A DNA stretch of 64,000 bases, taken from Fidelibacterota bacterium. Its GTDB lineage: Bacteria > Fidelibacterota > Marinisomatia > SCGC-AAA003-L08 > JACNLC01. Made by a program: the position numbers and the translations under genes. The notes beneath the pieces are model-generated. The model was given only the letters and a program-made list of their open reading frames with translations, ran no database searches and had not been told where the DNA came from. Location of the stretch: positions 6,047 through 70,046 of the forward strand of contig JAJRUW010000068.1 in assembly GCA_024277615.1 (NCBI GenBank), in the 5' to 3' direction. Of the stretch, positions 32,776-50,042 are shown one piece after another (position 1 is the stretch's first letter; every line of letters starts with the position of its first letter).

Positions 32776-33198
32776 TTATTGGGCAATTAGCGTATATTTT
32801 GAAGCGTTTCCGCTGACAGGCGAAGTATAAAGCCAGGTTGAATTATCTTCGGAAAATGTGAGTGTGCCGCTGGCTGGTGTGTAGGACCAACCATCCGGAA
32901 CCTCATCAAGGATAGCTTCCAGCCTGAGGTCAATTGTGGCCGGGAAGACCTTTTGATTATTTTGTGCCAGCTGATCAGAGGAATAACTGCTAAGGCCCGA
33001 ACGGATGATGCCGATAATTTTATCTTTGTTCGCCTCCTGAGCAACGGATTTCATGTCAAAGAATTTCGGAACGGCAACTGCTGCAAGGATGCCAATGATC
33101 GCAATGACAATAACCAGTTCTATCATTGTGAATCCCGTCTTCGAATAAGTGCAGGTTTGAGGGATATTTTCGGACAGTAATAATTTTTGTGTTTTCAT
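32776..33198 (-). CDS. Type IV pilin-like protein, paralog 2 (long leader)
   Basis: The leader and cleavage site read ...YSKTG|FTMIELVIVIAIIG. I set the start at ATG 33198 (MKTQKLLL) because the longer ORF-track start would include the 33207..33238 hairpin. The C-terminus is DNSTWLYTSPVSGNASKYTLIAQ. Confidence 0.8.
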   Translation of the reverse strand: MKTQKLLLSENIPQTCTYSKTGFTMIELVIVIAIIGILAAVAVPKFFDMKSVAQEANKDKIIGIIRSGLSSYSSDQLAQNNQKVFPATIDLRLEAILDEVPDGWSYTPASGTLTFSEDNSTWLYTSPVSGNASKYTLIAQ

Positions 33199-33206
33199 GA
33201 TTGTGA

Positions 33207-33238
33207 GAAGTGGGCTGCCTGTTATGACAGCCCACTTC
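33207..33238 (-). terminator. Perfect 11-bp stem-loop after pilin paralog 3 (no U-tract): attenuator or mRNA-stabilising hairpin
   Basis: GAAGTGGGCTG (33207..33217), a 10-nt loop, then CAGCCCACTTC (33228..33238). It lies 41 nt downstream of the pilin-3 stop. Confidence 0.45.
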
Positions 33239-33278
33239 AACATTGTCTGTTATAACAATGAACCGAGTAAGTCAGGAA

Positions 33279-33665
33279 TTATTGTGCCACTAAAGTATAT
33301 TTTGAAGCGTCACCTCCGACCGGTGATGTATAAAGCCAGGTTGAGTTATCACCGCTGTATGTCAAGATCCCGGTTCCCCCAACATAGGACCAACCGTCAG
33401 GCACTTCATCGAGAATGCTCTCAAGTGTCAATGATGCAGTTGCAGGGAAAGTCTTAGTCCCGTTAGTCGCCAACTGATTTGAGGCATAATTATTCAGACC
33501 GGTTTTAATATTTCCAATAACTGCATTTTTATTTGCGTTATGGGCCGTGGTTGTCAGATCAAAGAATTTCGGAACAGCAACCGCAGCCATTATACCGATA
33601 ATGGCAATTACGATGATTAATTCAATAAGCGTGAAACCACTTTGATGTTTATGGTTGTTTTTCAT
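33279..33665 (-). CDS. Type IV pilin, paralog 3 (best candidate major pilin)
   Basis: It has MKNNHKHQSG|FTLIELIIVIAIIG, preceded by AAGGAG. A sigma54-like promoter lies upstream and a strong hairpin downstream. The C-terminus is DNSTWLYTSPVGGDASKYTLVAQ. Confidence 0.85.
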   Translation of the reverse strand: MKNNHKHQSGFTLIELIIVIAIIGIMAAVAVPKFFDLTTTAHNANKNAVIGNIKTGLNNYASNQLATNGTKTFPATASLTLESILDEVPDGWSYVGGTGILTYSGDNSTWLYTSPVGGDASKYTLVAQ

Positions 33666-34140: not shown

Positions 34141-35451
34141 CTAATATTCTATAATCGACTCGGGCATTAATTGATAACGGATGTCTGATGTGAAGCGGGA
34201 AAAATTATTCTCAAAAAGGACCATACTCCCTTCAGTCAGTTCTGGTTGACGGCCAATTTTTGAAGCAACCAGGCTGCCCTCAAAATGAGCCTGATCCCCC
34301 AATAATTCCAGCCCTTCTGCAGGTGCATATATCCCGCCGAAAACCTTACCGGAAAGGACAATCTTTTTGTTCGGACTTATTAGCTGTCCCCAAATCGTCT
34401 TGTAGTTCCGATCAATGTTGATAGAAGCATGGGAAAAAATCTCATTACGTAAGACGGGTCTCTCTAAAGGTCGTGTGGTCTGTCGGTCGATGCCGAATTG
34501 TGTATTTTTTTTAATTCTGATTATTTTCTTTGAAATAAGTATTATATTGTCACCGAAAATTGTTGGCCTATCATGTTCTCCTTTAAGGGTTAAGCTTCCG
34601 GTAGTAACTAAAAAAGCAGGATCGGCAGTTGATCCGCCATAGACGGAGACTCCCTCAAATTCCGCCTCACCTTTGATGAACAGTGTCTTGTCGGGAAATG
34701 TGCTCAAATCCAGGTTATCATTTTCAAGCTCATAATTTCCCAGAATTTTATTATCCTTCGTACTAGTGATTGTTTCGGCAATATCAATGAGAGAATCTTC
34801 TTGCGAAAAATCGAAGTTAGTCGTCGGAGCAAGATCCACAAGAGTCGTGTTCAGGTGATTACCCTGCCCATTGTCAGCAATTGAAGAAGACGACAGATGA
34901 TAAAAGTCCGCACTCTCAATATTACCGACACATCCATCACAATCGATGGACAGATTATCTTCGAAGAATATATCACCGTCAAATCTAAAATGATTACGGA
35001 AACTAATATTCGCTAACTGTCCATCTGATATTATCGATATCGCGGGCCAGTCCGGGGAGCTTACCATAGTAAACTGAGCCTGCATACGTCTTGAACTTTT
35101 TCCTACGAGCGAAGTACTTTCCAACCGGATGTGATCTGACGGCAAAGCAATTCCAAAACGATCCGTTGTTGAAGATTTGATGGAAATATCCCCTTTAAAA
35201 AATTGCCAACTCCCAATGAGTGATGGCAGGGAGTTTGCCTTAAGCCATTGTTTGGAAAAACAAATCCCTGATTTTGCATTAAGACCGGACTGAATGTCAG
35301 AAATATATTTTTCAGAATCAACGGCAGTTTTTGTGACCGTATTTACAGCACCGGTAATGAGTAATATAATTATCATTGATGAAAAAAGAGAAACCATGGA
35401 GAAAATGAAACCGCTGTTGGCTGCTACAATGGTTTGTCCTTGGCATTTCAT
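34141..35451 (-). CDS. Giant GspK/PilX-like minor pilin with predicted beta-solenoid C-terminal region (paralog B)
   Basis: 436 aa. The N-terminus is ...NSG|FIFSMVSLFSSMIIILLI (a pilin-like hydrophobic helix without E+5). It shares blocks with 35511..36980: TTDRFG, RRMQAQF/RRIQAYF, IDCDGCVGN, EDSLIDIAE, GDNIILIS, PLERP and the C-terminal IIEY/IVEY. Confidence 0.55.
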   Translation of the reverse strand: MKCQGQTIVAANSGFIFSMVSLFSSMIIILLITGAVNTVTKTAVDSEKYISDIQSGLNAKSGICFSKQWLKANSLPSLIGSWQFFKGDISIKSSTTDRFGIALPSDHIRLESTSLVGKSSRRMQAQFTMVSSPDWPAISIISDGQLANISFRNHFRFDGDIFFEDNLSIDCDGCVGNIESADFYHLSSSSIADNGQGNHLNTTLVDLAPTTNFDFSQEDSLIDIAETITSTKDNKILGNYELENDNLDLSTFPDKTLFIKGEAEFEGVSVYGGSTADPAFLVTTGSLTLKGEHDRPTIFGDNIILISKKIIRIKKNTQFGIDRQTTRPLERPVLRNEIFSHASINIDRNYKTIWGQLISPNKKIVLSGKVFGGIYAPAEGLELLGDQAHFEGSLVASKIGRQPELTEGSMVLFENNFSRFTSDIRYQLMPESIIEY

Positions 35452-35510: not shown

Positions 35511-36980
35511 TTAATATTCAACGATGGTTCCGGGAACGATATCATAGCCAATCGTCGCCAAAAAATAGTTCTGATTTCGGTTTGTAAGGTTCATGCGTCC
35601 ACGTTTTAAATCACCATTTGGTGGTTTCGACAATTCCCGTGTGAACACGGTACCTTCAATATAGCTGTTGTGGTCGTCGAATTCTAACCCCTCACCGGCG
35701 TACACGACACCATAATAAACACCATCTATTTTTACTTTGTGGGTCGGAGAAATTGATTGTGCCCAAACTGTTTTTACATTATGATCGATGGAAATTTCAC
35801 GGTTTGCATATAGTTCATTGACCGTTAGGGGACGTTCCAGGGGATTTATGTCCGAATAATCAATTCCCACCTGGGCTTCTTTTTCAGCTTTTATGTCTTC
35901 ATCTGAAACAAGGATTATATTATCGCCAATGGTGGTACCATTATGATGTTTTTCTTTAATTATTATATCTTTGGTAGCAACAATAAAACATGGTTCGGCG
36001 ATACTGCAATCAAGCACATTACAACCTTTAAGTTCTACTTTTCCTTTTACAAACAGTGTGTTATCCTCATAATCAGTAAGATTAATATCCGAATTTTCAG
36101 GTTTATAATCACCTTTGATCTTATTACCTGTTGTATGAGAAATTGCTTTGGCAATATCTATAAGACTGTCTTCATAAAAGAAATTAGCAGCAGGAATGAA
36201 CATTTCACCCACCGTTTCCCAGGACCATAAATTCCCGGAGCCGTTGTCGGTGATATTATTGCCGTTTCTCCTGTAAAAATATGCACCGGAGTTATTTCCA
36301 ACACAGTTATCACAATCAATATTGACGTCTGTACCAAAATAGACCGTACCGTCAAAGATAAAATCATCTTTCATGACAATGCCGGACTCATGGCCACCCC
36401 CGTGACCACCCCCGTGACCTCCATCGTGACCTCCGCCGTGACCATGCCCGCATCCACCGTCATCGTCATCATCATCATCATCATCATCATCATCGTCGTC
36501 CTCGTCATCATCCCCGTGACCGCCAGCGTTTTTCACTGACTCAACTACGGATATATCAGGCCAGAAATTGTTATTTAACGAGGAAAAATACGCTTGAATT
36601 CGCCGTACGCTGTTCCCGACAGTCGTCGTGCTGATGACACGCACCATCCAGGGCGGTAAGCTGTTTCCAAATCTGTCTTTTGTGGATGTTGTAATTGCAA
36701 TTGTGCTGTTGTGGAAATCCCAATTTCCTTCAACACTAGCCAGATTGTGGGTCTGTATCCACCTTTTGGTGAATTCGATCCCCGAGACGGAGCTGTATTT
36801 TGATTGAGATGAAGAAAGTGACTCTGAAGACAATGTCGTCGAGAGAGAGACCGAATTCATCGACCAGAGAACGATAGACCCCAGAATAAAGGTGACACCA
36901 AGTGACATTATGGAAAAAGCAAATCCGCCCTGGCGATCTGTTCTGCAGTTACTCAAATTTATATTATTCTGCTTTTTCAT
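35511..36980 (-). CDS. Giant GspK/PilX-like minor pilin (paralog A) with poly-Asp / His-Gly insertion
   Basis: 489 aa. The N-terminus is ...RQGG|FAFSIMSLGVTFILGSIVLW (no E+5). The insertion is GGHGDDDEDDDDDDDDDDDDDDGGCGHGHGGGHDGGHGGGHGGGHESG (aa ~153-199). The C-terminal two-thirds is collinear with paralog B. Confidence 0.55.
   Translation of the reverse strand: MKKQNNINLSNCRTDRQGGFAFSIMSLGVTFILGSIVLWSMNSVSLSTTLSSESLSSSQSKYSSVSGIEFTKRWIQTHNLASVEGNWDFHNSTIAITTSTKDRFGNSLPPWMVRVISTTTVGNSVRRIQAYFSSLNNNFWPDISVVESVKNAGGHGDDDEDDDDDDDDDDDDDDGGCGHGHGGGHDGGHGGGHGGGHESGIVMKDDFIFDGTVYFGTDVNIDCDNCVGNNSGAYFYRRNGNNITDNGSGNLWSWETVGEMFIPAANFFYEDSLIDIAKAISHTTGNKIKGDYKPENSDINLTDYEDNTLFVKGKVELKGCNVLDCSIAEPCFIVATKDIIIKEKHHNGTTIGDNIILVSDEDIKAEKEAQVGIDYSDINPLERPLTVNELYANREISIDHNVKTVWAQSISPTHKVKIDGVYYGVVYAGEGLEFDDHNSYIEGTVFTRELSKPPNGDLKRGRMNLTNRNQNYFLATIGYDIVPGTIVEY
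36466..36494 (-). repeat. (GAT)9 trinucleotide microsatellite encoding part of the poly-Asp tract
   Basis: The plus strand reads TCA x9 + TC without interruption (36466..36494). It is flanked by GAC/GAG/GAT codons that extend the acidic run. Confidence 0.9.
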
Positions 36981-37001: not shown

Positions 37002-37265
37002 CTAAAGTTGAAGGAAAATTAATAACAGACCTGCTGCTGCGAGAATCCCTCCGAAACTGAAACGGTAAAGAAAGATCGCTTCATCATTCTCATTATATAT
37101 TTTCATGGCAGAAAATTGCAGATGTTTACTGTAGGCTCGGCAAATCTTCTGCAGTTTTTCTGAATTAAAGAAAAGCGCTGCACTAATCGTGAGCAGGGTT
37201 GCTACCAGGGCCAGGATAAAAATTTTATAAATAATCATAAATCCCTTAATTCTCCGGATAAACAT
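37002..37265 (-). CDS. Small 2-TM membrane protein, paralog of 33904..34128 (start may be ATG 37238)
   Basis: It has two hydrophobic helices (IFILALVATLLTISAALFF and FGGILAAAGLLLIFLQL). The ORF-track start overlaps the upstream gene by 20 nt; the internal Met10 removes that overlap. Confidence 0.45.
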   Translation of the reverse strand: MFIRRIKGFMIIYKIFILALVATLLTISAALFFNSEKLQKICRAYSKHLQFSAMKIYNENDEAIFLYRFSFGGILAAAGLLLIFLQL

Positions 37266-37782
37266 CGGCGATAAACCTAACCGACTGGTCTCCCGATTTC
37301 AATAGCAGATTCAAACGTGTACGCCATACATTTGCCAGGGTTTCGGTTAAGTCATCACCCTGATTATAATAATAAAACCCGCTGGAGTCAACCACAACGT
37401 TAGCGGTCACGATCATAGGAGAACCCTCACCGATAATTTGACGGAATAAGCCACCATTACCAAGCGTATATTCAACTGTAAGCGTATCATCCGACGCAAA
37501 TGAGCTTTGTTGATAACTGAATCTGAGAGTAGTATTACCAACAGAAACCAAATCCACCAGGGCTTCATATTCCCGGGTAAACCGTTTTACACTGTTGGAA
37601 CCATCGAGTACAATTTGTTTTCTCGTTTGAATCGTGTTGACAGTATTGGTACTTACCGAAATAATCGAGGCCACTACAACGGAGATGATAGTTACCACCG
37701 CCATACCAATTATCAATTCAATTAGTGTAAACCCTGGCAATCTGGAAAATGAGGAATGTAGTGGCTTTTGCATCATCATCAT
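37246..37782 (-). CDS. Minor pilin / pseudopilin (GspJ/PilW-like)
   Basis: It has the prepilin motif ...SRLPG|FTLIELIIGMAVVTII. 178 aa. The start overlaps the upstream stop (ATGA). Confidence 0.7.
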   Translation of the reverse strand: MMMMQKPLHSSFSRLPGFTLIELIIGMAVVTIISVVVASIISVSTNTVNTIQTRKQIVLDGSNSVKRFTREYEALVDLVSVGNTTLRFSYQQSSFASDDTLTVEYTLGNGGLFRQIIGEGSPMIVTANVVVDSSGFYYYNQGDDLTETLANVWRTRLNLLLKSGDQSVRFIADVYPEN

Positions 37783-38252
37783 GGTGTCATTATAGATGTT
37801 ATATTTACGGGAGCCTGCAATTCCGGGTGTAATACAGTAACGATAATTCTCTTATAATCGGTAACAGTTCCGACACTGTCCAGCAGATTGACATTAGGAT
37901 CAACATAGAATACTCTTGTTTTACCTGTAAAGCCAAAATAGCCCTGGTAGGTAAATGTGTATCCGATGTAATCATCAATATCATCATAATCTGCGGCTGA
38001 ATTTTCTTCCGCACCTAAGGGGTCACTCCAGGGAGACAGTGACTGCTCATCGAAAGAGTGTGCTCTGACGACCTCCATAATATTATTTGCCATAGATGTT
38101 CCGCGTATGATGGCTTCCATCCGGTTCTCCTGAGATTGCAGATTGCGCAGTGTCACCAGAGATGCAATAAAGGCGACACTGAGAAAAATTATCCCGACAA
38201 TAATGTCGAGCAGTGAAAAACCTTGCTGATATTTTCTAATTTGCATAAACAT
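37779..38252 (-). CDS. Minor pilin / pseudopilin (GspI/PilV-like)
   Basis: It has ...KYQQG|FSLLDIIVGIIFLSVAF (D at +5). 157 aa. Confidence 0.65.
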   Translation of the reverse strand: MFMQIRKYQQGFSLLDIIVGIIFLSVAFIASLVTLRNLQSQENRMEAIIRGTSMANNIMEVVRAHSFDEQSLSPWSDPLGAEENSAADYDDIDDYIGYTFTYQGYFGFTGKTRVFYVDPNVNLLDSVGTVTDYKRIIVTVLHPELQAPVNITSIMTP

Positions 38253-38717
38253 AGCCCGTTTCGGCAGTTACGATGATAAACTTGTTGTCGTTCAGGGCAA
38301 TAGTACCCCCTGCCGACGGTGTACCCCACCAATCAAAAATATTTCACTACCGCCGGAAAAATCTACAGCCGTCAAACTGACACCGGGGTATAGATCATCC
38401 AGTAAAAACTCCCCTGGCTCATTTGTTGAAGGATCGAGCATTAGCTGCCTGTTTTGCACATTTGGACCTGAATATATTCCATATTTATTTTGATTTACAT
38501 TTATGACCAACCAGGTTGTATCGTGAACTGAAGCTGCATAATCGGCGATGTACTGAATATCTTCTTTCAACTTCTCACTGGCATTATTAAGACGCAGGTT
38601 TATTATCACAGTATTGACTTTTGAACTAACGATGACGGATAGAATGCCCACGATTGCAATAACCATAATGATTTCAATGACCGAAAAACCGTCCTTTGAC
38701 ATCCCTTTGAAGATCAT
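38236..38717 (-). pseudogene. Minor pilin / pseudopilin (GspH/FimT-like) with apparent 1-nt frameshift at an A5 run (38335..38339)
   Basis: The N-terminus is MSKDG|FSVIEIIMVIAIVG. The ORF-track frame ends in ...SEIFLIGGVHRRQGVLLP*. The adjacent frame continues as FDWWGTPSAGGTIALNDNKFIIVTAETGYVYAN*, with the stop TAG at 38236..38238. That reads like a normal GspH-type C-terminus and overlaps the next gene start. Confidence 0.65.
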
Positions 38718-38943: not shown

Positions 38944-39336
38944 TCAGGCTGCGGCAAATTCTATTTTTAATCCTTCTGCAATTGATTTGTGTAATCCATA
39001 AAAAGACACCGGTTTTGGGAAAAAATCAACATCACCTGAAACCTCTAATTTGTCCGATATCTCTTTCTCATAATTTAAATGACCGGTCATTACAATTTTT
39101 TTTAAGTCTTCCTGAATGGCATCCGCACGATTCAATAACTCGAATCCGTCGATTACGGGCATGCGGATATCCGTAATCAGTACATGGTATTTCTCACATT
39201 TAAGGAATTCAAGCGCTTCCATACCTGAATAGGCTGTCCTGATAGAATATTTATCGGTTAGTGTTTCCAACCCTTTTTTAAGCAGCTTACACAGGCGGAT
39301 TTCATCATCAACTATGAGTACTTTAATTTTTTCCAT
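38944..39336 (-). CDS. Single-domain response regulator (CheY-like receiver)
   Basis: It has KVLIVDDE, the acceptor HVLITDIRMPVIDG, VMTGH and FPKP. 130 aa. Confidence 0.85.
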   Translation of the reverse strand: MEKIKVLIVDDEIRLCKLLKKGLETLTDKYSIRTAYSGMEALEFLKCEKYHVLITDIRMPVIDGFELLNRADAIQEDLKKIVMTGHLNYEKEISDKLEVSGDVDFFPKPVSFYGLHKSIAEGLKIEFAAA

Positions 39337-39347
39337 ACACCTTAAAC

Positions 39348-39363
39348 TGCAATTTTCAGGCCA
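39348..39363 (-). promoter_or_regulatory. Candidate sigma54 promoter immediately upstream of the receiver gene
   Basis: The minus strand reads TGGCCTGAAAATTGCA against the consensus TGGCACG-N4-TTGCW, with 2 mismatches and exact spacing. The -12 C lies 13 nt upstream of the A of the ATG. Confidence 0.4.
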
Positions 39364-39493
39364 GGCAATTTATAGATAAAAATATTCAACTTATTTCAAT
39401 ATATTGTAATTCATTGTTGATATTTGGGACATGCGGTAAATAAATATTACACTTCGATAATGTTCACAGCTCACTGAGAAACTGTCAACGAAT

Positions 39494-40705
39494 CTATTTC
39501 ATCAAGGTATTCATGTCCCACATTGGCAGGAAGATCCCCATTGCAAAGATCAACAGAAAAATCCCGATCAGCACCGTCATGAGAGGCTCAATCACGGCAC
39601 TGAGCCCATCGATTTTTGCATCTACTTCGGTATCATATTGGTGTGCAATGTTTTCCAGCATCTGTTCCAGACTTCCTGACCGTTCACCGATTGAGATCAT
39701 TTTAATGGTCATCTTTGGAAAATACCGGCTGTCGGATAATGACTCGGATAGTGAAACTCCTTCAACTACCTGCCCTTTGGCGCTGCTGATGTCCTTTTTG
39801 AGAATTCTGTTTTCCAGCGTCAGTTCGGTAATTTCCAGTGCCTTCACGATCTGAATCCCGCTTTTCATCAGTGTTTGCAGGATATGCGCAAATCTAGCTA
39901 CGGATGACTTTAAGATAATATCCTTAAAAATCGGAATTGATAACTTTAATTTATCAAAAGATACGGCACCTGCATTAGTCTTCAGATAAAACCGCAGGGC
40001 TGTAATGATCCCGATAATTGCCAGCAGTGTAATCCACCAGTAATTGATAAACATGTGACTTATTCCAATCAAAATACGAGTGGGCAGAGGCAGCGTCACA
40101 CCTGCTGAAAGGAACATTTTTGAAAATTTAGGTATGATGAAAACGATTGCACCGGTGAAGGCAAGGGCCAGAATGGTCAAAACGATGATGGGATATCGCA
40201 GAGCCGCTTTGATGTTTTTTGAAACCTGGATATCATGACGAATGAAAACCCTTAAATTATCGAGTATCCCTTCCAAAACACCGGTAGCTTCACCGATTTT
40301 TACCATGTTGACATAAAGTGTATTGAAGACGTTTGGATGATCCGCCAGAGCAGAGGAGAAAGGTTGACCGCTTCTTACTTTTTGGATAATATCTTGTAAG
40401 ATCTTCTGCAATTTATCGGTTTCGGCCTGCTCCTCAATAGACTCCAGACATTCAATCAGCGGGACACCGGCTTTTAACATTACAACCAGTTGAGAAGTCA
40501 GGTTTTCCAGTTCTTGGGGTTTTACGACCTTCCTGAATTTTGGGAATACCTGTAAATTGATGGGTTCAGCTTTTTCTTTCAGAGAAAGCAGTGTATTGTT
40601 TTCCGACTCCATGATCTCATAGACCTCAAATTTGGAGTCCGCCTCGATGGTTGTCTCCCTTATCAAACCATCGCTGGTTACAATTTTACAGCTGAACCGG
40701 GGCAC
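39494..40705 (-). CDS. pilC: Type IV pilus platform protein PilC/GspF family
   Basis: 403 aa with two T2SSF repeats, three TM segments and a GTG start preceded by AAGGAG. It has MLKAGVPL, GEATGVLEG, LMKSGIQIV and GERSGSLEQML. Confidence 0.9.
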   Translation of the reverse strand: MPRFSCKIVTSDGLIRETTIEADSKFEVYEIMESENNTLLSLKEKAEPINLQVFPKFRKVVKPQELENLTSQLVVMLKAGVPLIECLESIEEQAETDKLQKILQDIIQKVRSGQPFSSALADHPNVFNTLYVNMVKIGEATGVLEGILDNLRVFIRHDIQVSKNIKAALRYPIIVLTILALAFTGAIVFIIPKFSKMFLSAGVTLPLPTRILIGISHMFINYWWITLLAIIGIITALRFYLKTNAGAVSFDKLKLSIPIFKDIILKSSVARFAHILQTLMKSGIQIVKALEITELTLENRILKKDISSAKGQVVEGVSLSESLSDSRYFPKMTIKMISIGERSGSLEQMLENIAHQYDTEVDAKIDGLSAVIEPLMTVLIGIFLLIFAMGIFLPMWDMNTLMK

Positions 40706-40768
40706 TACAGATCACTCCTTGAGTTTGGAATGTTAAGGTTACGATTTCGTCTAATATTCAATAATCTT

Positions 40769-42166
40769 TCAGTCATCCCGGTCTCCCTGTAAATCATAAA
40801 TTTTCATTTTCCTGTATAAGGCTGTTCGAGAAATACCGAGTGCTTTGGCAATTTTACTGATATTTTTTTTGCCTATCTGCAGAGCATGTTCTATAGCCAA
40901 TCGTTCAACCTCTGCAAGCGGTAAAATAGTTTCTCCAAAAACCAACTTATCGGCCCCGGTGGAAGGCGGGTCAGGCTCAGTTTGTCGGTAAACAGCCTCC
41001 TCGAGGATAGATTTTTCCAGGTGAGGTTCTTTTGCATAAAATATTATGCGTGTCAGCAGGTTACCCAGCTCTCTGATATTCCCTTTGAGAGGGAGCTCGC
41101 AGATGCTGTTTATCAGGTCGGAGGATATCGATTTTAAATCGAGCATTGAACTTGTGAGGTAATTACCGAGCAAAAACAAGATCAACAGAGGAATGTCACC
41201 GGGACGTTCTTTCAAAGGCAGCAGACGGATCGGGATCACGTTCAATCTGTGGAATAAGTCTTCTCTAAATTTACCCTCGGCGATGAGTTTTTCGAGACTC
41301 ATATTCGTAGCGGCAATCACTCGGATATCAACGGTTTTTGTGGTTGTACTCCCGAGTCTCTGAACAGTATGATCCTCCAATACCCGCAGCAGCTTTGCTT
41401 GCAGATCAAGCGCCATGTCACCAATTTCATCCAGGAAGATTGTGCTGTTATCAGCGAGCTCGAACATGCCGGGTTTAGCAGTATTAGCGCCTGTAAAAGC
41501 ACCTTTCTCATAACCGAAAAGCTCACTTTCCAGAAGATGTTCGGGGATTGCAGCGCAATTCAGAGAAATAAAATTTTGACTGCTCCGGGAACTTAGCTGA
41601 TGGATGGATCTGGCAACCAATTCTTTGCCGGTACCGCTGTCACCGAGAATCATAACGGTAAAGTCAGTCGCGGCCACTCTTGTAATCTGACGGTAAATAT
41701 CCAGCATGTGAGACGAATTGCCGACAAATTTTCCAAAACCGTTTGGTTTCAGGTGCGTTCGCAGTTTTTCGGGCAGGGCCTTTTTAAGACCGGAATAAGT
41801 ATTGATCCTGGAATGAATATCCGGTAATTCCGAAAGTATCATTTTGCGAAGATTGATCGAAAAAAGGGCATCATTTTTCCCGCAGAGTTCTCCACTGATT
41901 TTGTTACCGTCATAAAATATGATGACGGGCAGATGCCGGTCCTGGCGCCTCAGGCGTCGTATAAATCCGCTGTAATTATTCCGGAGCAGCTTCCAGTCCA
42001 GGAAAATGGCAGAAAATGTTTCAACAGTTGCATAGGATAACACCGAGGTCAGGTTCCGTGTGACCGTCAATTCTGATGAATTCTCCTGCAGACTGGATTT
42101 TAATTTCTTAATAAATCCGGGATCGGATTTTAACAGTCCCGTCGATATGCCCAGCAAGTAGCGCAT
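40769..42166 (-). CDS. Sigma54-dependent transcriptional activator (PilR-like) with degenerate N-terminal receiver
   Basis: It has the AAA+ core GDSGTGKELVARSIH, the GAFTGA loop (EKGAFTGANT) and a C-terminal Fis-type HTH (NISKIAKALGISRTALYRKMK). The N-terminal domain lacks the acidic DD pair (LLGISTG) but keeps IFLDWKL. Confidence 0.88.
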   Translation of the reverse strand: MRYLLGISTGLLKSDPGFIKKLKSSLQENSSELTVTRNLTSVLSYATVETFSAIFLDWKLLRNNYSGFIRRLRRQDRHLPVIIFYDGNKISGELCGKNDALFSINLRKMILSELPDIHSRINTYSGLKKALPEKLRTHLKPNGFGKFVGNSSHMLDIYRQITRVAATDFTVMILGDSGTGKELVARSIHQLSSRSSQNFISLNCAAIPEHLLESELFGYEKGAFTGANTAKPGMFELADNSTIFLDEIGDMALDLQAKLLRVLEDHTVQRLGSTTTKTVDIRVIAATNMSLEKLIAEGKFREDLFHRLNVIPIRLLPLKERPGDIPLLILFLLGNYLTSSMLDLKSISSDLINSICELPLKGNIRELGNLLTRIIFYAKEPHLEKSILEEAVYRQTEPDPPSTGADKLVFGETILPLAEVERLAIEHALQIGKKNISKIAKALGISRTALYRKMKIYDLQGDRDD

Positions 42167-43831
42167 TTATTCCAGTGTTATCCGCAACATTTCTTCAACC
42201 GACGTTTTCCCCGAGATGACCAGCTCCAAACTGGATTCGCGGAGAGTTCGCATTCCCTTTTCCACAGCCGTATGGTGAATAGTGCGAGCCGTGGCATTCC
42301 TGGTAACCATACCGGTTATTTCTTCGTCGGGTACGAGCAATTCATATACTCCTGTCCTGCCGGTGTAACCTGAGTTTTTACAATGCATGCACCCCCGGGC
42401 TTCATAAATGGAACTGCCCTGTTCGGCACTGATCCCGAGGCTTTCGAGGAGTTCCGGCGGAGCTGTGATTCTCTCTTTACAACTCGGACACAGCAGTCTT
42501 ATCAAGCGCTGGGCAAGTATTGCTCTCACGGTGGAGCTGACCAGGTAGGCATCCATCCCCATATTTGACAAGCGCGTAAAACATGATGCGGCATCGTTCG
42601 TATGGATTGTGCTAAAGACCAGATGCCCTGTAAGTGCAGCTCTGATAGCCAGTTCGGCAGTCTCCAGATCTCTGATTTCTCCAACCATAATGATATCCGG
42701 ATCCTGACGGAGCATGGAGCGTAGTGCGGCTGAAAATGTCATACCGGCTTTTGTATTTACCTGTGCCTGTGTGATGTTGTCCAGACGGTATTCAATAGGG
42801 TCCTCTACGGTCATTATATTGACTTCCACAGTATTGACCACGGCCAGGGTTGCATAAAGGGTTGTCGTCTTACCGGAACCGGTAGGGCCTGACACTATTA
42901 TCAATCCGTTCGGTGAATGAATTGATCTTTCCCACGTATGAAATGTATCCTTGCTGAATCCCATTTTTTCCAGTGATATTCTGGATTTCTTTTGGTCCAG
43001 AATTCGCATTACTATTTTTTCTCCGAGGGGAGTCGGGAAAGTTGATGAGCGGATATCCACATCCGAGCGCTGCTCCTGAAAATGAAACCTGCCGTCCTGG
43101 GGTTTCCGGGATTCGGCAATATCCATATTTGATAGTATTTTAATTCGGGAGATCAAGGGCGCTAAGGCTGAACGCGGGAATGTATAATATTGCTGCAGAA
43201 CACCGTCAACCCGGAAGCGGATCCGGACATCTTTCTCTCTGGGGTCGATATGAATATCACTGGCCCCGATTTTCACGGCTTCAAGAATCAGCATATTCGC
43301 TGATTCGATAATTTCCGTATCTTCGGCAATTTCTTTGGATACAACCCTTACCCTTGAGCGGGAATCCTCCTGTTCACTTCCCCCATCAACATATTGTTCG
43401 ACCCCGTAGTAGAGATCGATGACTTTCTTAATGCTCATCTCAGGAGCCAGTACGAGATTTATTTCCATTACAGTTTCAACGTTCAGCTCATCAATTATCT
43501 CAACGTTGATCGGGTCGGAACAGGCTACCGTCAATTTGTTGCCGATATGAAATAGCGGTATAATATTCAGCCTTTTTGCAACATCCTCTTTAACGATATC
43601 TATGACACCGTTTTCGATTTCATAAGTCAGGGGATCCAATGTGGGCAGTTTCAACTGGTCACTCACGGCCTCGATGATATCGTCTTCCGTTACAAAACCC
43701 AGTTCAATAAGGGCCAGGCCCAGGTATATGTCATGCGTCTGTTTATATTGGAGGGCTTCTTCCAGCTGCTGCATATCAATCTTGCCTTCGTCCAGCATGA
43801 TCTGCCCAAGTAATTTTTTTTCCTGTGCCAT
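42167..43831 (-). CDS. pilB: Type IV pilus assembly ATPase PilB/GspE/MshE family
   Basis: 554 aa with a T2SSE_N-like N-terminus, Walker A GPTGSGKTTT, an Asp box, Walker B IMVGEIRD, a His box and a tetracysteine motif CPSC...CMHC. Confidence 0.92.
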   Translation of the reverse strand: MAQEKKLLGQIMLDEGKIDMQQLEEALQYKQTHDIYLGLALIELGFVTEDDIIEAVSDQLKLPTLDPLTYEIENGVIDIVKEDVAKRLNIIPLFHIGNKLTVACSDPINVEIIDELNVETVMEINLVLAPEMSIKKVIDLYYGVEQYVDGGSEQEDSRSRVRVVSKEIAEDTEIIESANMLILEAVKIGASDIHIDPREKDVRIRFRVDGVLQQYYTFPRSALAPLISRIKILSNMDIAESRKPQDGRFHFQEQRSDVDIRSSTFPTPLGEKIVMRILDQKKSRISLEKMGFSKDTFHTWERSIHSPNGLIIVSGPTGSGKTTTLYATLAVVNTVEVNIMTVEDPIEYRLDNITQAQVNTKAGMTFSAALRSMLRQDPDIIMVGEIRDLETAELAIRAALTGHLVFSTIHTNDAASCFTRLSNMGMDAYLVSSTVRAILAQRLIRLLCPSCKERITAPPELLESLGISAEQGSSIYEARGCMHCKNSGYTGRTGVYELLVPDEEITGMVTRNATARTIHHTAVEKGMRTLRESSLELVISGKTSVEEMLRITLE

Positions 43832-43836
43832 GGTTA

Positions 43837-44607
43837 CTATCCTTTAATGATCAGAGTATGTACGTACCAGTTGATAATTTCCGGACCATATAAAATGCTG
43901 ATCAATGCTCCTAAACTAAGATAAGGTCCGAATGGCAATCGTCTGCCCAAACCTGATTTGCCGCTGACCAGCAATATCAAAATGACGATTGCCGAAGAGA
44001 AAAACGCCAGTGCAACGACTAATATACCTTCCTGCCACCCAAAAAAGAGACCCAGCAAAAATGCAAATTTCACATCCCCCAATCCCATCGCATCCTGTTT
44101 CAGAATGAGTTTTCCCAGAATTCTGATAATCAGAAAACCGAGTCCAAGTCCCAAAAAGCCCCAGAAATGCTGTGGAATCCCCGCATAACCACTACGGTAA
44201 ACAAAATACAGGGCCGGGACTAAAGCAATTACTAAAAAGGAGTCCGGTATAATTTGGACATCAAAATCGATAAAGGTCAAACCAATCAGGAGGCAGAGAA
44301 AGATGCCATAAAATATAAAATCAATGGGGTCACTAACACGTAAATAGGTGACAAATAAAATTGCTGCCGTCAGAAGCTCCACTAAAGGATATCGAATTGA
44401 TATCTTTTGGGCACAATTTGAGCATTTACCTCGCAGAAAAATATAGCTGAGTACGGGGATATTCTCGTACCACAGGATCATGTGTCCGCAATTTGTGCAG
44501 CTTGAACGGGGTGAGACAATGGATTTTCCCAGGGGAATCCGGTAAATGCAGACATTGAGAAAACTCCCAATTACCAGGCCCAGTATGATCACGAGTGCTG
44601 ATATCAT
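43837..44607 (-). CDS. pilD: Prepilin peptidase (A24 family)
   Basis: It has the N-terminal zinc-finger cysteines CTNCGH...CSNCAQ, multiple TM segments and the catalytic region MGLGDVKF. Confidence 0.9.
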   Translation of the reverse strand: MISALVIILGLVIGSFLNVCIYRIPLGKSIVSPRSSCTNCGHMILWYENIPVLSYIFLRGKCSNCAQKISIRYPLVELLTAAILFVTYLRVSDPIDFIFYGIFLCLLIGLTFIDFDVQIIPDSFLVIALVPALYFVYRSGYAGIPQHFWGFLGLGLGFLIIRILGKLILKQDAMGLGDVKFAFLLGLFFGWQEGILVVALAFFSSAIVILILLVSGKSGLGRRLPFGPYLSLGALISILYGPEIINWYVHTLIIKG

Positions 44608-44993
44608 TTTCGAGGCTCCGTAATTTGTTGTATGGCTTCCAATAATGTCTCCGGTACAATAGGTTTTGAGATTTGCAGATCGCCGCGAATTTCTCTCAGC
44701 AGGTTCTCATCGAGGTCTGCACCCTGATCTGTTATCAGGATTATCGGAATATGCTGGTATTGCTGGTCAAACTTCAACAGCCGGCAGACATGCAGACCGT
44801 CAATTTCCGGCAGCATAACGGCCAGAAGTATGAGATCGGGGTTTTCCGATCGGGCAAGTTTTAATCCGGTAAGTCCATCATCTGCTGAAATAACCCTCAT
44901 TTCGATCTGTTCGAGGAATGCGGTGATGAAATCGACGAAAGACAACTCTTCATCAATGATCAATATCTTTTTTCTGTCATCGTGCTGGGCCAT
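44604..44993 (-). CDS. Aspartate-less receiver domain protein (pseudo-receiver)
   Basis: It has a receiver fold with ILIIDEE, ILITDQ (Thr) and ISKP (Lys). The phospho-acceptor position reads DLILLAVMLPEIDG, with Ala58 where Asp is expected. Confidence 0.75.
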   Translation of the reverse strand: MAQHDDRKKILIIDEELSFVDFITAFLEQIEMRVISADDGLTGLKLARSENPDLILLAVMLPEIDGLHVCRLLKFDQQYQHIPIILITDQGADLDENLLREIRGDLQISKPIVPETLLEAIQQITEPRK

Positions 44994-46106
44994 TTATACT
45001 CCTGTTTTAAGCTGAATGGATAAACTGGCTTCCTGTTCTTCTTCGGTACTGATCCGCAAGCGTAAATCGGATTGATTGTCGGCATACCAAACGGCGGTTT
45101 CCCTGGTTATCCTGCCTTCGCGGTAAAGATTGAACAGACTTTGGTCGAAAGACTGCATGCCCTCATTATTCGAGGATTCGAGGGTTGTTTTCAGCATGTG
45201 CGTGTCCCCGCGCTGGATGAGGTCTTTAACGCGGGCCGAAGGGAACATGATTTCATGAGCGGCAATGTTTTTACCGTCAATGCCCGGCACCAGCCGCTGG
45301 GCAATAACGGCTTCCAGATTGTTGCTGATCTGCGACCGGATCATGACCTGGAGATAAGGATCGAAGAAGTTGACGATCCGTTCGATGGTTTGAGAGGTGT
45401 TGACGGCATGCAGCGTGCTGATGACCAAATGTCCCGTTTCAGAAAAATTCAGAGCTGCCGACATGGTCTCGATATCGCGTATTTCGCCGATAGAGATCAT
45501 TGAGGGGGATTCCCTCAGAGCGCTTTTTAGGGCCTGAGTGTAGTTTTTAGCATCGTGTCCTATCTCCCGCTGGTTGACGATAGACTTTTTATGCGAGTGC
45601 AGGAATTCGATGGGGTCCTCCAGCGTCAGAATATGTCCGGGCAGAGTGGCGTTACGATGGTCTATCATGGCTGCGATGGTTGTTGACTTCCCCGAGCCGG
45701 CCTGGCCCACGACCAGGATGAGCCCACGCTCCTTCAGAGTGAGGTTTTTCAGCTGTACCGGTAATGATAATTCGTCTATACTTTTAATCCGGTTCAAAAT
45801 TTGATGGATAACAAAGGCATCCGAGCCCCTCTGCTGAAAATAATTGATGCGAAAACGACCCACACCGGGAAAACTGTAAATAAAATCCAGATCATGTTCC
45901 CGGCGGAAATCCTCCTGCTGCTGTTTGGTCAACAGACTGGTGCGGAGGGCATCCAGCATTTCAAAAGTAACCTTCTTCTCTTCGATCACATGAATCTCAC
46001 TGCCTATTTTTAGAGTCGGATAGGCGCCGATACTGATGAATAAATCAGATGCTTTGGATTCTGCCATGATTTTCAACAGATCTTCAACTTTGTAAATATC
46101 AACCAT
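44994..46106 (-). CDS. PilT-family retraction ATPase paralog (PilU-like)
   Basis: It has Walker A GQAGSGKST, TLEDPIEF, GEIRD and TGHLVISTLH. It lacks the AxxNLIRE motif (it has VKDLIQRGD). Confidence 0.85.
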   Translation of the reverse strand: MVDIYKVEDLLKIMAESKASDLFISIGAYPTLKIGSEIHVIEEKKVTFEMLDALRTSLLTKQQQEDFRREHDLDFIYSFPGVGRFRINYFQQRGSDAFVIHQILNRIKSIDELSLPVQLKNLTLKERGLILVVGQAGSGKSTTIAAMIDHRNATLPGHILTLEDPIEFLHSHKKSIVNQREIGHDAKNYTQALKSALRESPSMISIGEIRDIETMSAALNFSETGHLVISTLHAVNTSQTIERIVNFFDPYLQVMIRSQISNNLEAVIAQRLVPGIDGKNIAAHEIMFPSARVKDLIQRGDTHMLKTTLESSNNEGMQSFDQSLFNLYREGRITRETAVWYADNQSDLRLRISTEEEQEASLSIQLKTGV

Positions 46107-47155: not shown

Positions 47156-47170
47156 ACTGAGCCCTGACTG

Positions 47171-48976: not shown

Positions 48977-48980
48977 GGTA

Positions 48981-49463
48981 TTATTGTGTTAGTATTAATC
49001 GGATTGATTGATCCCCCTTGCTCAATATTACATACCGGAATGCAATCTTATCGAGACGGTAGCCACTGATCACGTCGCCTTCCCGCAAAATATTTGAATT
49101 GATCACAGCCGTGCAGCTGTTGCTGATGCAGGAGATTCCGGTGAGGTCCAGAGTCGATGCTTTTGTTGCTTTGTCAAACAGCAGACCGTCGCCTTCCTGC
49201 AGATCAGCCGAAACATAATAAAATGGGTCTTGCGACCAGTCTTCCGGCCAGCCGGATTTTAACAATTTCTCAATTCGGGACATATCGGGAATGCTTACAG
49301 CCGGAGCGACGGGAGCGGTAACGGTTGCAGCAATGGCAGCTGTCTCCGATTGCACCGCCGTTCCGGTTTTACCTCCCAGATAGCCTGAATCCCAAAGGTA
49401 ATAGACAATCACTGCCAGTAAAACTGCTGCTAAAATGTACTGACGTTTATTTTCACTGTTCAT
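48981..49463 (-). CDS. PilP/MshK-like pilus assembly protein (single N-terminal TM)
   Basis: 160 aa with an N-terminal TM (YILAAVLLAVIVYYLW). Its position between the PilO-like gene and the secretin matches PilP/MshK. I recognised no diagnostic motif. Confidence 0.4.
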   Translation of the reverse strand: MNSENKRQYILAAVLLAVIVYYLWDSGYLGGKTGTAVQSETAAIAATVTAPVAPAVSIPDMSRIEKLLKSGWPEDWSQDPFYYVSADLQEGDGLLFDKATKASTLDLTGISCISNSCTAVINSNILREGDVISGYRLDKIAFRYVILSKGDQSIRLILTQ

Positions 49464-50041: not shown

Positions 50042-50042
50042 A

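What the first reader, a model, noticed from the sequence alone, without database searches (positions are those of the whole stretch)
36384..36524. Poly-Asp / His-Gly tract in one tip-protein paralog, encoded partly by a perfect (GAT)9 microsatellite
Paralog A contains GGHGDDDEDDDDDDDDDDDDDDGGCGHGHGGGHDGGHGGGHGGGHESG. That is a run of ~18 acidic residues followed by (G)nH repeats. Paralog B has nothing at this position. Such tracts are classic divalent-cation binders: Asp for Ca/Mg or mineral surfaces, His-Gly for Ni/Zn/Cu. This suggests metal- or mineral-dependent adhesion at the pilus tip. At the DNA level, nine uninterrupted GAT units (36466..36494) form a slippage-prone repeat. Slippage in multiples of 3 nt would change tract length in frame, giving length polymorphism rather than on/off switching.
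Basis: partly seen in the sequence, partly recalled or inferred. Interest (0 to 1): 0.6.

Follow-up and report, generated by a model that had tools for sequence, protein, structure and literature searches.

The report
Length-variable Asp/His loop in pilus-tip pilin
A real, disordered stretch of aspartate, histidine and glycine sits in a probable pilus-tip protein of an uncultured marine bacterium; it changes length in frame by DNA slippage and recurs across this rare protein family, which suggests a selected, probably cation-binding, role that has not been tested.

Summary
Residues 153-200 of a 489-aa minus-strand gene (35511..36980) read exactly as quoted. They include 18 consecutive acidic residues and a perfect (GAT)9 at 36468..36494, where shuffles give none. 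Three further assemblies carry the tract, so it is not an artefact.

The predicted length polymorphism is real. Two 4.8-kb contigs with no mismatches differ only by (GAT)9 versus (GAT)11. Closer and more distant relatives differ by 14-16-aa in-frame indels.

The protein has no Pfam or NCBIfam match. Its AlphaFold model (pLDDT 84.6) shows a type IV pilin module plus a beta-solenoid. The best PDB match is ComZ, the proposed tip pilin of Thermus. The gene lies after three minor-pilin genes in a complete type IV pilus cluster of a Marinimicrobia/FCB-group genome.

The tract is disordered and sits at the pilin-to-solenoid junction. In relatives this junction holds nothing, other Asp/His tracts, or folded modules (CBM96, DUF7467). 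In relatives the Asp tracts use mixed codons, so the composition looks selected at the protein level.

Metal or mineral binding is plausible but untested. I rate it a new variant of a modular tip pilin, of moderate interest.

The parts
35511..36980 (-). Gene A: 489-aa ComZ-like modular minor pilin. It has a prepilin-like N-terminus, a pilin module, the Asp/His/Gly tract and a beta-solenoid.
   Evidence: ORF and translation. AF2 model with pLDDT 84.6. Foldseek best hit is ComZ 6QVI, E 1.9e-5. No Pfam or NCBIfam match.
36537..36932 (-). Pilin module of A (residues 17-148): a long alpha-1 helix (17-76) and a beta-sheet (84-148), ending in the conserved motif FWPDISVVE.
   Evidence: Secondary structure of the AF2 model. 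Family alignment.
36381..36524 (-). Asp/His/Gly low-complexity tract (residues 153-200). It is predicted disordered and forms the first linker between the pilin module and the beta-solenoid.
   Evidence: Sequence. pLDDT below 50 at 153-160 and 169-196. It maps between profile positions 143 and 146, a family-wide insertion hotspot.
36459..36512 (-). Run of 18 acidic residues (D3-E-D14): 12 GAT, 5 GAC and 1 GAG codon.
   Evidence: Codon listing. Tandem Repeats Finder period 3 with 17.7 copies.
36468..36494 (-). Perfect (GAT)9 microsatellite, the slippage-prone core.
   Evidence: 0 expected in 100 shuffles.
36394..36444 (-). 12-nt tandem units (4.2 copies, 84% matches) encoding the GGGH repeats. 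The 90%-identical ortholog P0001 has a 42-nt deletion that removes most of these units.
   Evidence: Tandem Repeats Finder. DNA alignment.
35514..36380 (-). Beta-solenoid module and conserved C-terminal strand (residues 201-489).
   Evidence: AF2 pLDDT mostly above 90. Foldseek hits to ComZ and to ice-binding-protein beta-solenoids.
34141..35451 (-). Paralog B (436 aa, 38% identical to A), which lacks the tract.
37002..37265 (-). 87-aa ORF with two hydrophobic segments, conserved immediately upstream of A orthologs.
   Evidence: A 78-aa ORF occupies the same position in L001, L002 and L008.
37246..38717 (-). Three minor-pilin genes: 38292..38717 (GspH/ComGD-like), 37779..38252 (weakly PilV-like) and 37246..37782 (N_methyl, weakly GspI/J-like).
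   Evidence: Pfam and NCBIfam scans.
32776..33665 (-). Two PilA/GspG-like pilin genes downstream of B (33279..33665 and 32776..33243).
38944..54087 (-). Rest of the type IV pilus cluster: response regulator, PilC (T2SSF), sigma-54 activator, PilB/MshE-type ATPase, prepilin peptidase, response regulator, two PilT-like ATPases, secretin, PilO, a PilM-containing protein and an AAA_22 protein.
   Evidence: Pfam scans.

Best explanation
Gene A encodes a modular minor pilin with the ComZ architecture: a GspK/PilX-class pilin module without Glu5 that carries a beta-solenoid. It most likely caps a retractile type IV pilus of a Marinimicrobia/FCB-group bacterium. The Asp/His/Gly tract is an intrinsically disordered loop at the junction between the pilin module and the solenoid. 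In this family the junction acts as a payload slot. In relatives it is empty, or it carries other Asp/His tracts, CBM96 carbohydrate-binding modules or DUF7467 modules.

The tract's length is tuned in frame by replication slippage of the GAT units and the 12-nt GGGH units. This is shown. Its composition (45% Asp, 24% Gly, 11% His) is maintained at the protein level. This is inferred from recurrence and from mixed synonymous codons in relatives.

The most likely molecular role, inferred from chemistry only, is multivalent binding of divalent cations: Ca2+/Mg2+ on carboxylates and Zn2+/Ni2+/Cu2+/Fe2+ on imidazoles. That would let the pilus tip stick to negatively charged, mineral or particle surfaces by cation bridging, with repeat length setting valency and reach.
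For: - The tract is real and more than chance.
- Length variation: L002 and L008 are identical over 4810 bp apart from one 6-nt gap, (GAT)9 versus (GAT)11. P0001 is 90% identical but its tract is about 14 aa shorter. In the P0004 cluster, 98%-identical proteins differ by a 16-aa indel inside their Asp/His tract.
- Architecture: AF2 pLDDT is 84.6, with helix 17-76, sheet 84-148, a disordered stretch 153-196 and a confident beta-rich module 200-488. Foldseek ranks ComZ 6QVI first (E 1.9e-5, probability 1.0), then the FfIBP-type solenoids. The ComZ paper reports the same solenoid similarity (FfIBP), and finds GspK as closest to ComZ's pilin domain (PMC6561018).
- Operon context. The distant homolog P0004 sits in the same gene order.
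- Hotspot: MAFFT and HMM mapping place inserts between profile positions 140 and 146 in many lineages. The inserts include CBM96/DNRLRE and DUF7467.
- Recurrence: Asp/His tracts occur in about 14 of some 90 cluster representatives, at three or more sites, and in a second minor pilin of the P0004 operon (L003:8225-9310). 13 of 15 independent tracts contain both Asp and His. His is 10.8% of tract residues against 1.9% in the window's proteins. Ala, Val, Tyr, Leu, Ile, Phe, Met, Gln and Arg are absent from the 15 independent tracts.
- Codons: relatives' tracts use GAT:GAC at 30:17 and 10:7, close to the genome-wide 64% GAT, and have no identical-codon run longer than 4.
- P0089 keeps the pilin module, an Asp/His tract and the C-terminal strand but has no solenoid.
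Against: - No metal binding, adhesion or pilus-tip location has been measured.
- The link to ComZ is by fold only. TM-scores are low (0.26) and a family profile finds no ComZ sequence in the PDB.
- Pfam N_methyl and PilX_N do not match A.
- Paralog B and most family members work without any tract, so it is dispensable for the core role.
- His (CAT) and Gly (GGT) are single-base neighbours of GAT, so part of the composition could be mutational.
- In several relatives Asp/Glu tracts flank folded inserts, which fits a simple linker role as well.
- L002 and L008 may derive from overlapping samples. The (GAT)9/(GAT)11 difference could then be within-population heterogeneity or an assembler's choice rather than two fixed alleles; either way the length varies.
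Confidence: 0.55

Rival explanations
1. The tract is a neutral passenger. It is a tolerated low-complexity expansion in a permissive, solvent-exposed interdomain linker, produced and resized by slippage and with no function of its own. The Asp/His/Gly composition reflects the GAT seed and its one-step neighbours CAT and GGT.
For: - A pure (GAT)9 core and 12-nt repeats are present.
- Paralog B and most family members lack any tract.
- The site tolerates inserts of many kinds and sizes.
- The region is predicted disordered.
Against: - The same composition recurs at three or more different sites, in distant lineages and in a different minor pilin of a related operon.
- Relatives' tracts have scrambled synonymous codons at genome-typical GAT:GAC ratios, so they are old and held at the amino-acid level.
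- Other one-step neighbours of GAT (Tyr, Ala, Val) never occur. Asn, a transition away, is rarer than His, which needs a transversion.
- No other kind of polar homopolymer (poly-Gln, poly-Lys, poly-Pro) appears as a long tract in the family, and Asn and Ser occur only mixed into the Asp/His tracts.
Confidence: 0.2
2. The tract is an acidic entropic spacer or hinge. It gives the solenoid freedom of movement, or keeps the tip away from the anionic cell surface and other pili, or acts as a nucleic-acid mimic that modulates a ComZ-like DNA-binding surface. Cation binding is incidental.
For: - It is one of the peptide linkers between the two modules.
- In relatives, Asp/Glu tracts flank the folded DUF7467 inserts on both sides.
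- ComZ binds DNA (PMC6561018).
Against: - A pure spacer does not explain the consistent enrichment of His, present in 13 of 15 tracts.
- P0089 keeps the tract although there is no solenoid to space.
- P0004 and P0007 carry it inside a Cys-bounded loop of the solenoid rather than in a linker.
Confidence: 0.15
3. The tract is a variation device. Hypermutable length change at an exposed tip epitope lets the cell escape pilus-specific phages or grazers. The variability itself is what is selected.
For: - Length differs between every allele seen, including otherwise identical contigs.
- The junction is the most variable part of the family.
Against: - Composition is conserved while sequence is not, which points to chemistry rather than mere novelty.
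- Several relatives' tracts lack pure DNA repeats and so are not hypermutable.
- No phage or receptor evidence exists.
Confidence: 0.08
4. The tract is an assembly or sequencing artefact.
For: Low-complexity repeats are error-prone in short-read assemblies.
Against: - The tract is in frame inside a long ORF.
- It is found, with lineage-specific differences, in the window, a Logan assembly, an NCBI MAG and a JGI metagenome.
Confidence: 0.01

Closest known systems
ComZ of Thermus thermophilus (PDB 6QVI), the competence-pilus tip pilin and DNA receptor (PMC6561018)
   Same: - It is a pilin module carrying a large beta-solenoid, and it is the best Foldseek match (E 1.9e-5).
- The solenoid also resembles ice-binding proteins such as FfIBP, as reported for ComZ.
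- The gene lies among minor-pilin genes next to a PilA-like pilin gene.
- Both have an atypical prepilin N-terminus.
   Different: - No sequence-level similarity is detectable and TM-scores are low (0.26).
- Neither the ComZ paper (0 mentions of calcium) nor my own knowledge gives ComZ an Asp/His tract.
- Here there are two tandem paralogs.
- DNA binding is untested.
- The phylum differs (Marinimicrobia/FCB group versus Deinococcus-Thermus).
GspK / PilX class of tip minor (pseudo)pilins
   Same: - It is a large minor pilin lacking Glu5, encoded after GspH/I/J-like genes.
- It carries an extra domain grafted into the pilin fold and is expected to be at the tip. ComZ's pilin module is closest to GspK.
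   Different: - Pfam PilX_N and the NCBIfam GspK models do not match A. Only a faint PilX_N hit appears, in relative P0027 (E 0.038).
- The grafted domain is a beta-solenoid, not the alpha-domain of GspK.
- GspK's structural Ca2+ site (from my own knowledge) is a folded site, not a low-complexity tract.
Modular type IV pilins, e.g. Streptococcus sanguinis PilB (vWA module with a metal-binding MIDAS) and PilC (lectin module) (PMC8179133, PMC9934059)
   Same: - A functional payload is grafted onto a pilin module and presented at the pilus tip.
- In PilB, metal coordination (Mg2+/Mn2+) matters for pilus function.
- Relatives of A carry CBM96 or DUF7467 modules in the same slot.
   Different: - Here the payload in the slot is a disordered low-complexity tract rather than a folded domain.
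- Its length is genetically unstable.
His/Asp-rich metal-binding disordered segments: the ZnuA His-rich loop, HypB/SlyD/Hpn tails, His-rich loops of CDF and ZIP transporters, and the prion HGGGW octarepeat (from my own knowledge, not tested here)
   Same: - The composition is similar: runs of Asp/Glu with interspersed His, and HGGG units.
- The tract is predicted disordered.
   Different: - Those segments sit in metal transport or chaperone proteins, not on a pilus.
- No sequence homology is implied.
- Metal binding by this tract is unmeasured.
Simple-sequence-repeat contingency loci of bacteria
   Same: - A perfect 9-unit repeat lies inside a surface-structure gene.
- Unit-number change between near-identical genomes is demonstrated.
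   Different: - The units are 3 nt and 12 nt, so slippage changes protein length and cannot switch the gene on or off.
- The mutation rate was not measured.
PilY1 calcium-dependent pilus regulator (from my own knowledge)
   Same: It is a large pilus-tip-associated protein whose cation binding controls pilus behaviour.
   Different: - PilY1 is not a pilin. It has a beta-propeller with an EF-hand-like site.
- No PilY1 homolog or Pfam match was found here.

Membership tests
Type IV pilin / minor pilin | Class III signal peptide: a short basic leader, then Gly, then Phe followed by about 20 hydrophobic residues. | tested here: inconclusive
   The sequence reads ...TDRQGG|FAFSIMSLGVTFILGSIVLW, and the Gly is nearly invariant in the family. 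However, Pfam N_methyl and TIGR02532 do not match A, and cleavage is unproven. A prepilin peptidase gene is in the cluster.
Type IV pilin / minor pilin | Pilin fold: a long N-terminal alpha-1 helix packed on an antiparallel beta-sheet. | tested here: met
   The AF2 model has helix 17-76 and strands 84-148 with block pLDDT mostly 84-92, dipping to 72-76 in two blocks. Foldseek aligns it to the pilin ComZ.
Type IV pilin / minor pilin | Encoded in a type IV filament gene cluster. | tested here: met
   PilB/MshE, PilC, two PilT-like ATPases, prepilin peptidase, secretin, PilM/O and five other pilin genes lie on the same strand.
Tip-class minor pilin (GspK/PilX-like) | No Glu at mature position 5. 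| tested here: met
   The mature N-terminus would be F-A-F-S-I. No family member in the alignment has Glu5.
Tip-class minor pilin (GspK/PilX-like) | Sequence match to the PilX_N or GspK models. | tested here: not met
   There is no hit for A, B, P0003 or P0004 even at E up to 10 in Pfam or up to 1 in NCBIfam. The only signal is a faint PilX_N hit in P0027 (E 0.038).
ComZ-like pilins | A beta-solenoid grafted into the pilin fold, with structural similarity to 6QVI. | tested here: met
   Foldseek gives 6qvi_A at E 1.9e-5 and probability 1.00, followed by ice-binding-protein solenoids. Whether the C-terminal strand returns to the pilin sheet could not be checked, because no model coordinates were available.
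ComZ-like pilins | Detectable sequence homology to ComZ. | tested here: not met
   A profile of 20 family members searched against all PDB sequences did not find ComZ at E up to 10.
ComZ-like pilins | DNA binding and a role in natural transformation. | not testable with these tools
   This needs EMSA or genetics.
Simple-sequence-repeat (contingency-type) locus | A perfect tandem repeat whose unit number differs between closely related genomes. | tested here: met
   (GAT)9 in the window and in L002, (GAT)11 in L008, with 0 mismatches over the other 4810 bp.
Simple-sequence-repeat (contingency-type) locus | Slippage switches expression on and off (phase variation). | tested here: not met
   The units are 3 nt and 12 nt long, and all observed variants stay in frame.
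Metal-binding His/Asp-rich disordered segment | Measured binding of divalent cations. | not testable with these tools
   Only composition is available: 18 Asp, 2 Glu, 7 His and 19 Gly in 48 residues, with recurrence across the family.
RTX / EF-hand / DxDxDG calcium-binding repeats | A match to a defined repeat model, or regularly spaced motifs. | tested here: not met
   No Pfam calcium-binding repeat family matches A even at E up to 10. A single GGHGDD and a single DDDDDG are the only motif-like strings.

The most novel reading that the evidence does not exclude
A rare, Marinimicrobia-centred family of ComZ-like tip pilins uses a disordered Asp/His tract as its adhesive or capture payload instead of a folded domain. 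The tract's length would be tuned by microsatellite slippage. It would allow cation-bridged attachment of a retractile pilus to mineral or particle surfaces, or capture of trace metals at the pilus tip. It would be interchangeable, in the same slot, with CBM96 and DUF7467 modules, and present in a minimal 183-aa 'pilin plus tract' form (P0089).
Probability: 0.2. Interest if true: 0.7.

Novelty: new variant of a known kind. Interest (0 to 1): 0.5.

Why it matters
Type IV pili are versatile partly because functional modules are grafted onto tip pilins. All described payloads are folded domains. If a length-variable, disordered Asp/His tract is itself the payload, that adds a new way to build a pilus adhesin. 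It would also give a testable mechanism for how abundant but uncultured deep-ocean Marinimicrobia attach to particles or minerals.

The work also defines a previously unannotated family: no Pfam or NCBIfam model, and about 90 clusters among 1.84 billion representatives. It has the ComZ architecture outside Thermus, with an identifiable slot for swapping modules. If the tract turns out to be only a tolerated linker, the finding reduces to an ordinary coding microsatellite.

Tried and rejected
- Word-indexed homology searches gave only 2-4 hits each. The third search, with a 20-sequence profile from which the tracts had been removed, was no better. The exhaustive HMM search was what defined the family.
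With a narrower alignment, the genome collection gave only two loci, one of which duplicates L002.
- Both metagenome scans, one by protein pattern and one by a conserved 23-nt DNA flank, found nothing. A population-scale table of tract lengths could therefore not be made.
- Six window proteins were looked up by exact sequence and none was in the collection, so the source record was not identified. The only window-derived protein found was P0005, a 314-aa fragment of paralog B.
- Pfam and NCBIfam gave no family for A or B, and the hits inside the tract were low-complexity noise.
- Readings considered and rejected:
  - Assembly artefact: the tract occurs in several further assemblies.
  - On/off phase variation: the repeat units are multiples of 3 nt.
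  - An RTX or EF-hand repeat domain: no model matches.
  - A coding ORF on the opposite strand: the + strand gives only an 85-aa His/Arg-rich stop-free segment.
- A PHROGs scan of the neighbours of P0089 was uninformative about whether that scaffold is viral.
Full report
OBSERVATION. The coordinates fall inside a minus-strand ORF, 35511..36980, of 489 aa. The acidic run is 18 residues long (D3-E-D14, 36459..36512). Its core is a perfect (GAT)9 at 36468..36494; counting the partial unit, the run is 36466..36494. One hundred dinucleotide-preserving shuffles of the window gave no match even with two mismatches allowed. It is the longest perfect trinucleotide repeat in the 64 kb. Tandem Repeats Finder also sees 4.2 copies of a 12-nt unit at 36394..36444, which encode the GGGH repeats. 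Downstream paralog B (34141..35451, 436 aa, 38% identical) has only a short linker at this point.

NOT AN ARTEFACT, AND THE LENGTH VARIES. Three orthologs from other assemblies carry the tract, each in a different version:
- P0001 (Logan SRR29324590) is 90% identical as protein and 91% as DNA.
- P0002 (NCBI MAG GCA_964543505.1) is 74% identical.
- P0095 (JGI 3300023548) matches P0002 at every aligned position, apart from two extra Asp.

The clearest case is L002 versus L008. Over 4810 aligned bases there are no mismatches and a single 6-nt gap, which is (GAT)9 versus (GAT)11. P0001 lacks 42 nt of the GGGH-unit region and has an interrupted Asp run. In the distant P0004 cluster, proteins that are 98% identical differ by a 16-aa indel inside their own Asp/His tract. 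All variants are in frame. One caveat: L002 and L008 may derive from related samples, so their difference may be within-population heterogeneity. No reads were available to check this.

WHAT THE PROTEIN IS. Neither A nor B matches any Pfam or NCBIfam model. An exhaustive HMM search of 1.84 billion cluster representatives found only 89 relatives at E<=1e-3. The few that carry names come from Marinimicrobia (Neomarinimicrobiota, Fidelibacterota) or 'FCB group' MAGs. A T9SS-tailed protein elsewhere in the window is consistent with an FCB-group origin.

An AlphaFold2 model built on 37 family sequences has mean pLDDT 84.6. It shows a 60-residue N-terminal helix (17-76) on a beta-sheet (84-148), which is a pilin fold. 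Residues 153-196 are disordered (pLDDT below 50 for most of the stretch). Residues 200-488 form a confident beta-rich module. Foldseek against the PDB ranks the three chains of ComZ from Thermus thermophilus (6QVI) first (E 1.9e-5, probability 1.0), followed by ice-binding-protein beta-solenoids such as FfIBP. The ComZ paper reports the FfIBP similarity for ComZ's solenoid and GspK as the closest match to its pilin domain, and argues on steric grounds that ComZ must sit at the pilus tip (PMC6561018).

The similarity is architectural only. TM-scores are low (0.26), and a family profile does not find ComZ among PDB sequences.

The N-terminus (…RQGG|FAFSIMSLGVTFIL…) has the Gly-Phe-hydrophobic pattern of a prepilin but lacks Glu5, as do all family members. 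From my own knowledge, this is the hallmark of GspK/PilX-type tip subunits.

CONTEXT. All the relevant genes are on the minus strand, in this order:
- an AAA_22 protein, a PilM-containing protein, PilO and the secretin;
- two PilT-like ATPases, a response regulator and the prepilin peptidase;
- a PilB/MshE-type ATPase, a sigma-54 activator, PilC and a second response regulator;
- three minor-pilin genes (GspH-like, PilV-like and an N_methyl pilin) and an 87-aa ORF;
- A, then B, then two PilA/GspG-like pilins;
- dnaX, ybaB and recR.

The distant homolog P0004 sits at the same place in a syntenic cluster on a 220-kb contig whose near-identical cluster-mates are annotated as Marinimicrobia. 'Tip-protein paralog' is therefore a reasonable reading, supported by structure and gene position. 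It is not proven.

WHERE THE TRACT SITS. In a MAFFT alignment of 38 family members, and in an HMM mapping, the tract lies immediately after the conserved FWPDxSxIE motif that ends the pilin module and before the first solenoid strand (profile positions 143-146). This junction is the family's insertion hotspot. It takes one of four forms:
- Most members have a few residues there.
- The A clade, P0016, P0019, P0028, P0042 and probably P0032 and P0045 have Asp/Glu/His/Gly-rich tracts.
- P0015 and P0028 have a DUF7467 module there.
- P0027, P0029, P0035 and P0037 have a CBM96 / disaggregatase-related (DNRLRE) carbohydrate-binding module there.

The junction thus behaves as a payload slot of a modular pilin, in the sense of Raynaud et al. 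(PMC8179133).

IS THE COMPOSITION SELECTED? Several lines of evidence say yes.
- Asp/His tracts recur in about 14 cluster representatives and at other sites. One site is a Cys-bounded loop 30 residues downstream (P0004, P0007). Others are profile position 193 (P0012) and a C-terminal site in P0019.
- In the P0004 operon a different protein carries such tracts. It is a bona fide prepilin of 361 aa (L003:8225-9310), with a 75-aa Asp/Gly/Asn/His tract, then a DUF7467 module, then an Asp/His tail.
- Pooled over 15 independent tracts, the composition is D 45%, G 24%, H 11%, E 6%, N 6% and S 4.5%. There is no Ala, Val, Tyr, Leu, Ile, Phe, Met, Gln or Arg. Thirteen of the 15 contain both Asp and His. 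His is about 5.7 times its frequency in the window's proteins.
- In the L003 tracts, Asp codons are mixed at GAT:GAC 30:17 and 10:7, matching the 64% GAT of ordinary genes. No identical-codon run exceeds 4. This pattern fits an old tract held at the amino-acid level, not a recent DNA expansion. In the window and in P0002, a pure (GAT)9 core is superimposed on such codon-mixed flanks. That points to recent slippage within an older tract.
- P0089 (183 aa) keeps the pilin module, an Asp/His/Asn tract and the conserved C-terminal strand but has no solenoid. The tract can therefore be the only thing in the slot.

MECHANISM (INFERRED). Runs of carboxylates with interspersed imidazoles and HGGG units are chemically suited to multivalent binding of Ca2+/Mg2+ and of Zn2+/Ni2+/Cu2+/Fe2+. 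From my own knowledge, comparable segments include the ZnuA loop, the HypB/SlyD/Hpn tails, the His-rich loops of CDF transporters and the prion HGGGW repeat. Placed in the ligand slot of a tip pilin on a retractile pilus, such a tract would most plausibly mediate cation-bridged attachment to anionic, mineral or particle surfaces. Repeat length would set valency and reach.

I put about 0.55 on the overall picture: a selected, slippage-tuned, cation-binding payload loop of a ComZ-like tip pilin. The component judgements are:
- slippage-driven length variation, about 0.95;
- tip-pilin identity, about 0.75;
- in-vitro metal binding, about 0.7;
- metal-dependent adhesion as the biological role, about 0.3.

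RIVALS.
- A neutral, tolerated expansion (0.2). It is weakened by the recurrence, the codon mixing and the restricted composition.
- An acidic spacer, hinge or DNA mimic (0.15). It fits the Asp/Glu flanks of DUF7467 inserts, but it does not explain the His enrichment or P0089.
- An epitope-variation device against pilus phages (0.08).
- An artefact (0.01).

COMPARISON AND NOVELTY. By architecture this is a ComZ-like, GspK/PilX-class modular minor pilin. By sequence it belongs to an unannotated family. Searches of the held literature for histidine-rich or poly-aspartate tracts in pilins returned nothing. I classify it as a new variant of a known kind, a modular tip pilin whose slot holds a length-variable disordered Asp/His tract. 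Interest is moderate (0.5). The anatomy and evolution are clear and somewhat unexpected, but the function rests on composition alone.

Noticed in passing
L003:8225-9310 (+), contig FLOH01000124.1, same operon as P0004: A 361-aa bona fide prepilin (GFSLIE motif) made of a pilin domain, a 75-aa Asp/Gly/Asn/His tract, a DUF7467 module (Pfam E 5.6e-11) and an Asp/His C-terminal tail. The same DUF7467 module occurs in the junction slot of the ComZ-like proteins P0015 and P0028, so modules and acidic tracts appear to be shuffled between different minor pilins.
   Followed up: partly
P0089; L009:6001-6552 (ENA ERZ23491642, 139-kb scaffold): A 183-aa 'mini' family member with a pilin module, an Asp/His/Asn tract and the conserved C-terminal strand but no beta-solenoid. 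It is listed in 77 blocks of the collection. Its neighbourhood is a run of small unknown ORFs with no pilus genes. This might indicate a mobile or viral element, but the PHROGs scan was uninformative.
   Followed up: partly
P0045 residues ~135-185; P0032 residues ~150-190: A Trp/Gly/Arg-rich, Cys-bounded segment (for example GRGYGKGWRWGRSGRGIDWWAW…CLDIWGWKWGNNC) directly precedes the Asp/His tract in two distant family members. Its nature is unknown.
   Followed up: no
window 37002..37265 (-): An 87-aa ORF with two hydrophobic segments lies between the third minor-pilin gene and gene A. A 78-aa ORF sits at the same place in L001, L002 and L008. It has no family match.
   Followed up: partly
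window 36450..36455 (Cys177 of A); compare P0028, P0019 and L003:8225-9310: The lone Cys after the Asp run in A (…DDDDGGCGH…) resembles the 'acidic run then C-G-E-C-D-G-K' start of the DUF7467 inserts in relatives. The tract could be the remnant flank of a lost module. P0001 and P0002 lack this Cys.
   Followed up: no
window 34141..35451 (-) versus P0005: The only public protein identical to a window product is a 314-aa version of paralog B, which covers 72% of the 436-aa ORF. Exact look-ups of six window proteins, including A, found nothing. Gene calls in the source record may therefore differ or be missing.
   Followed up: partly
window 268..2043 (+), repeat at 401..603: An ORF with a T9SS C-terminal sorting domain contains a 111-nt tandem repeat (1.8 copies) that encodes Cys-rich units.
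   Followed up: no
window 15033..15050: A perfect (GCC)6 lies inside the alanyl-tRNA synthetase ORF (14925..17522, minus strand). It is the second-longest trinucleotide repeat in the window.
   Followed up: no
window 38944..46106 (-): The pilus cluster embeds a sigma-54 enhancer-binding protein and two stand-alone response regulators. The assembly ATPase carries an MshEN domain, which from my own knowledge is a c-di-GMP-binding domain in MshE. This suggests regulated pilus production.
   Followed up: no
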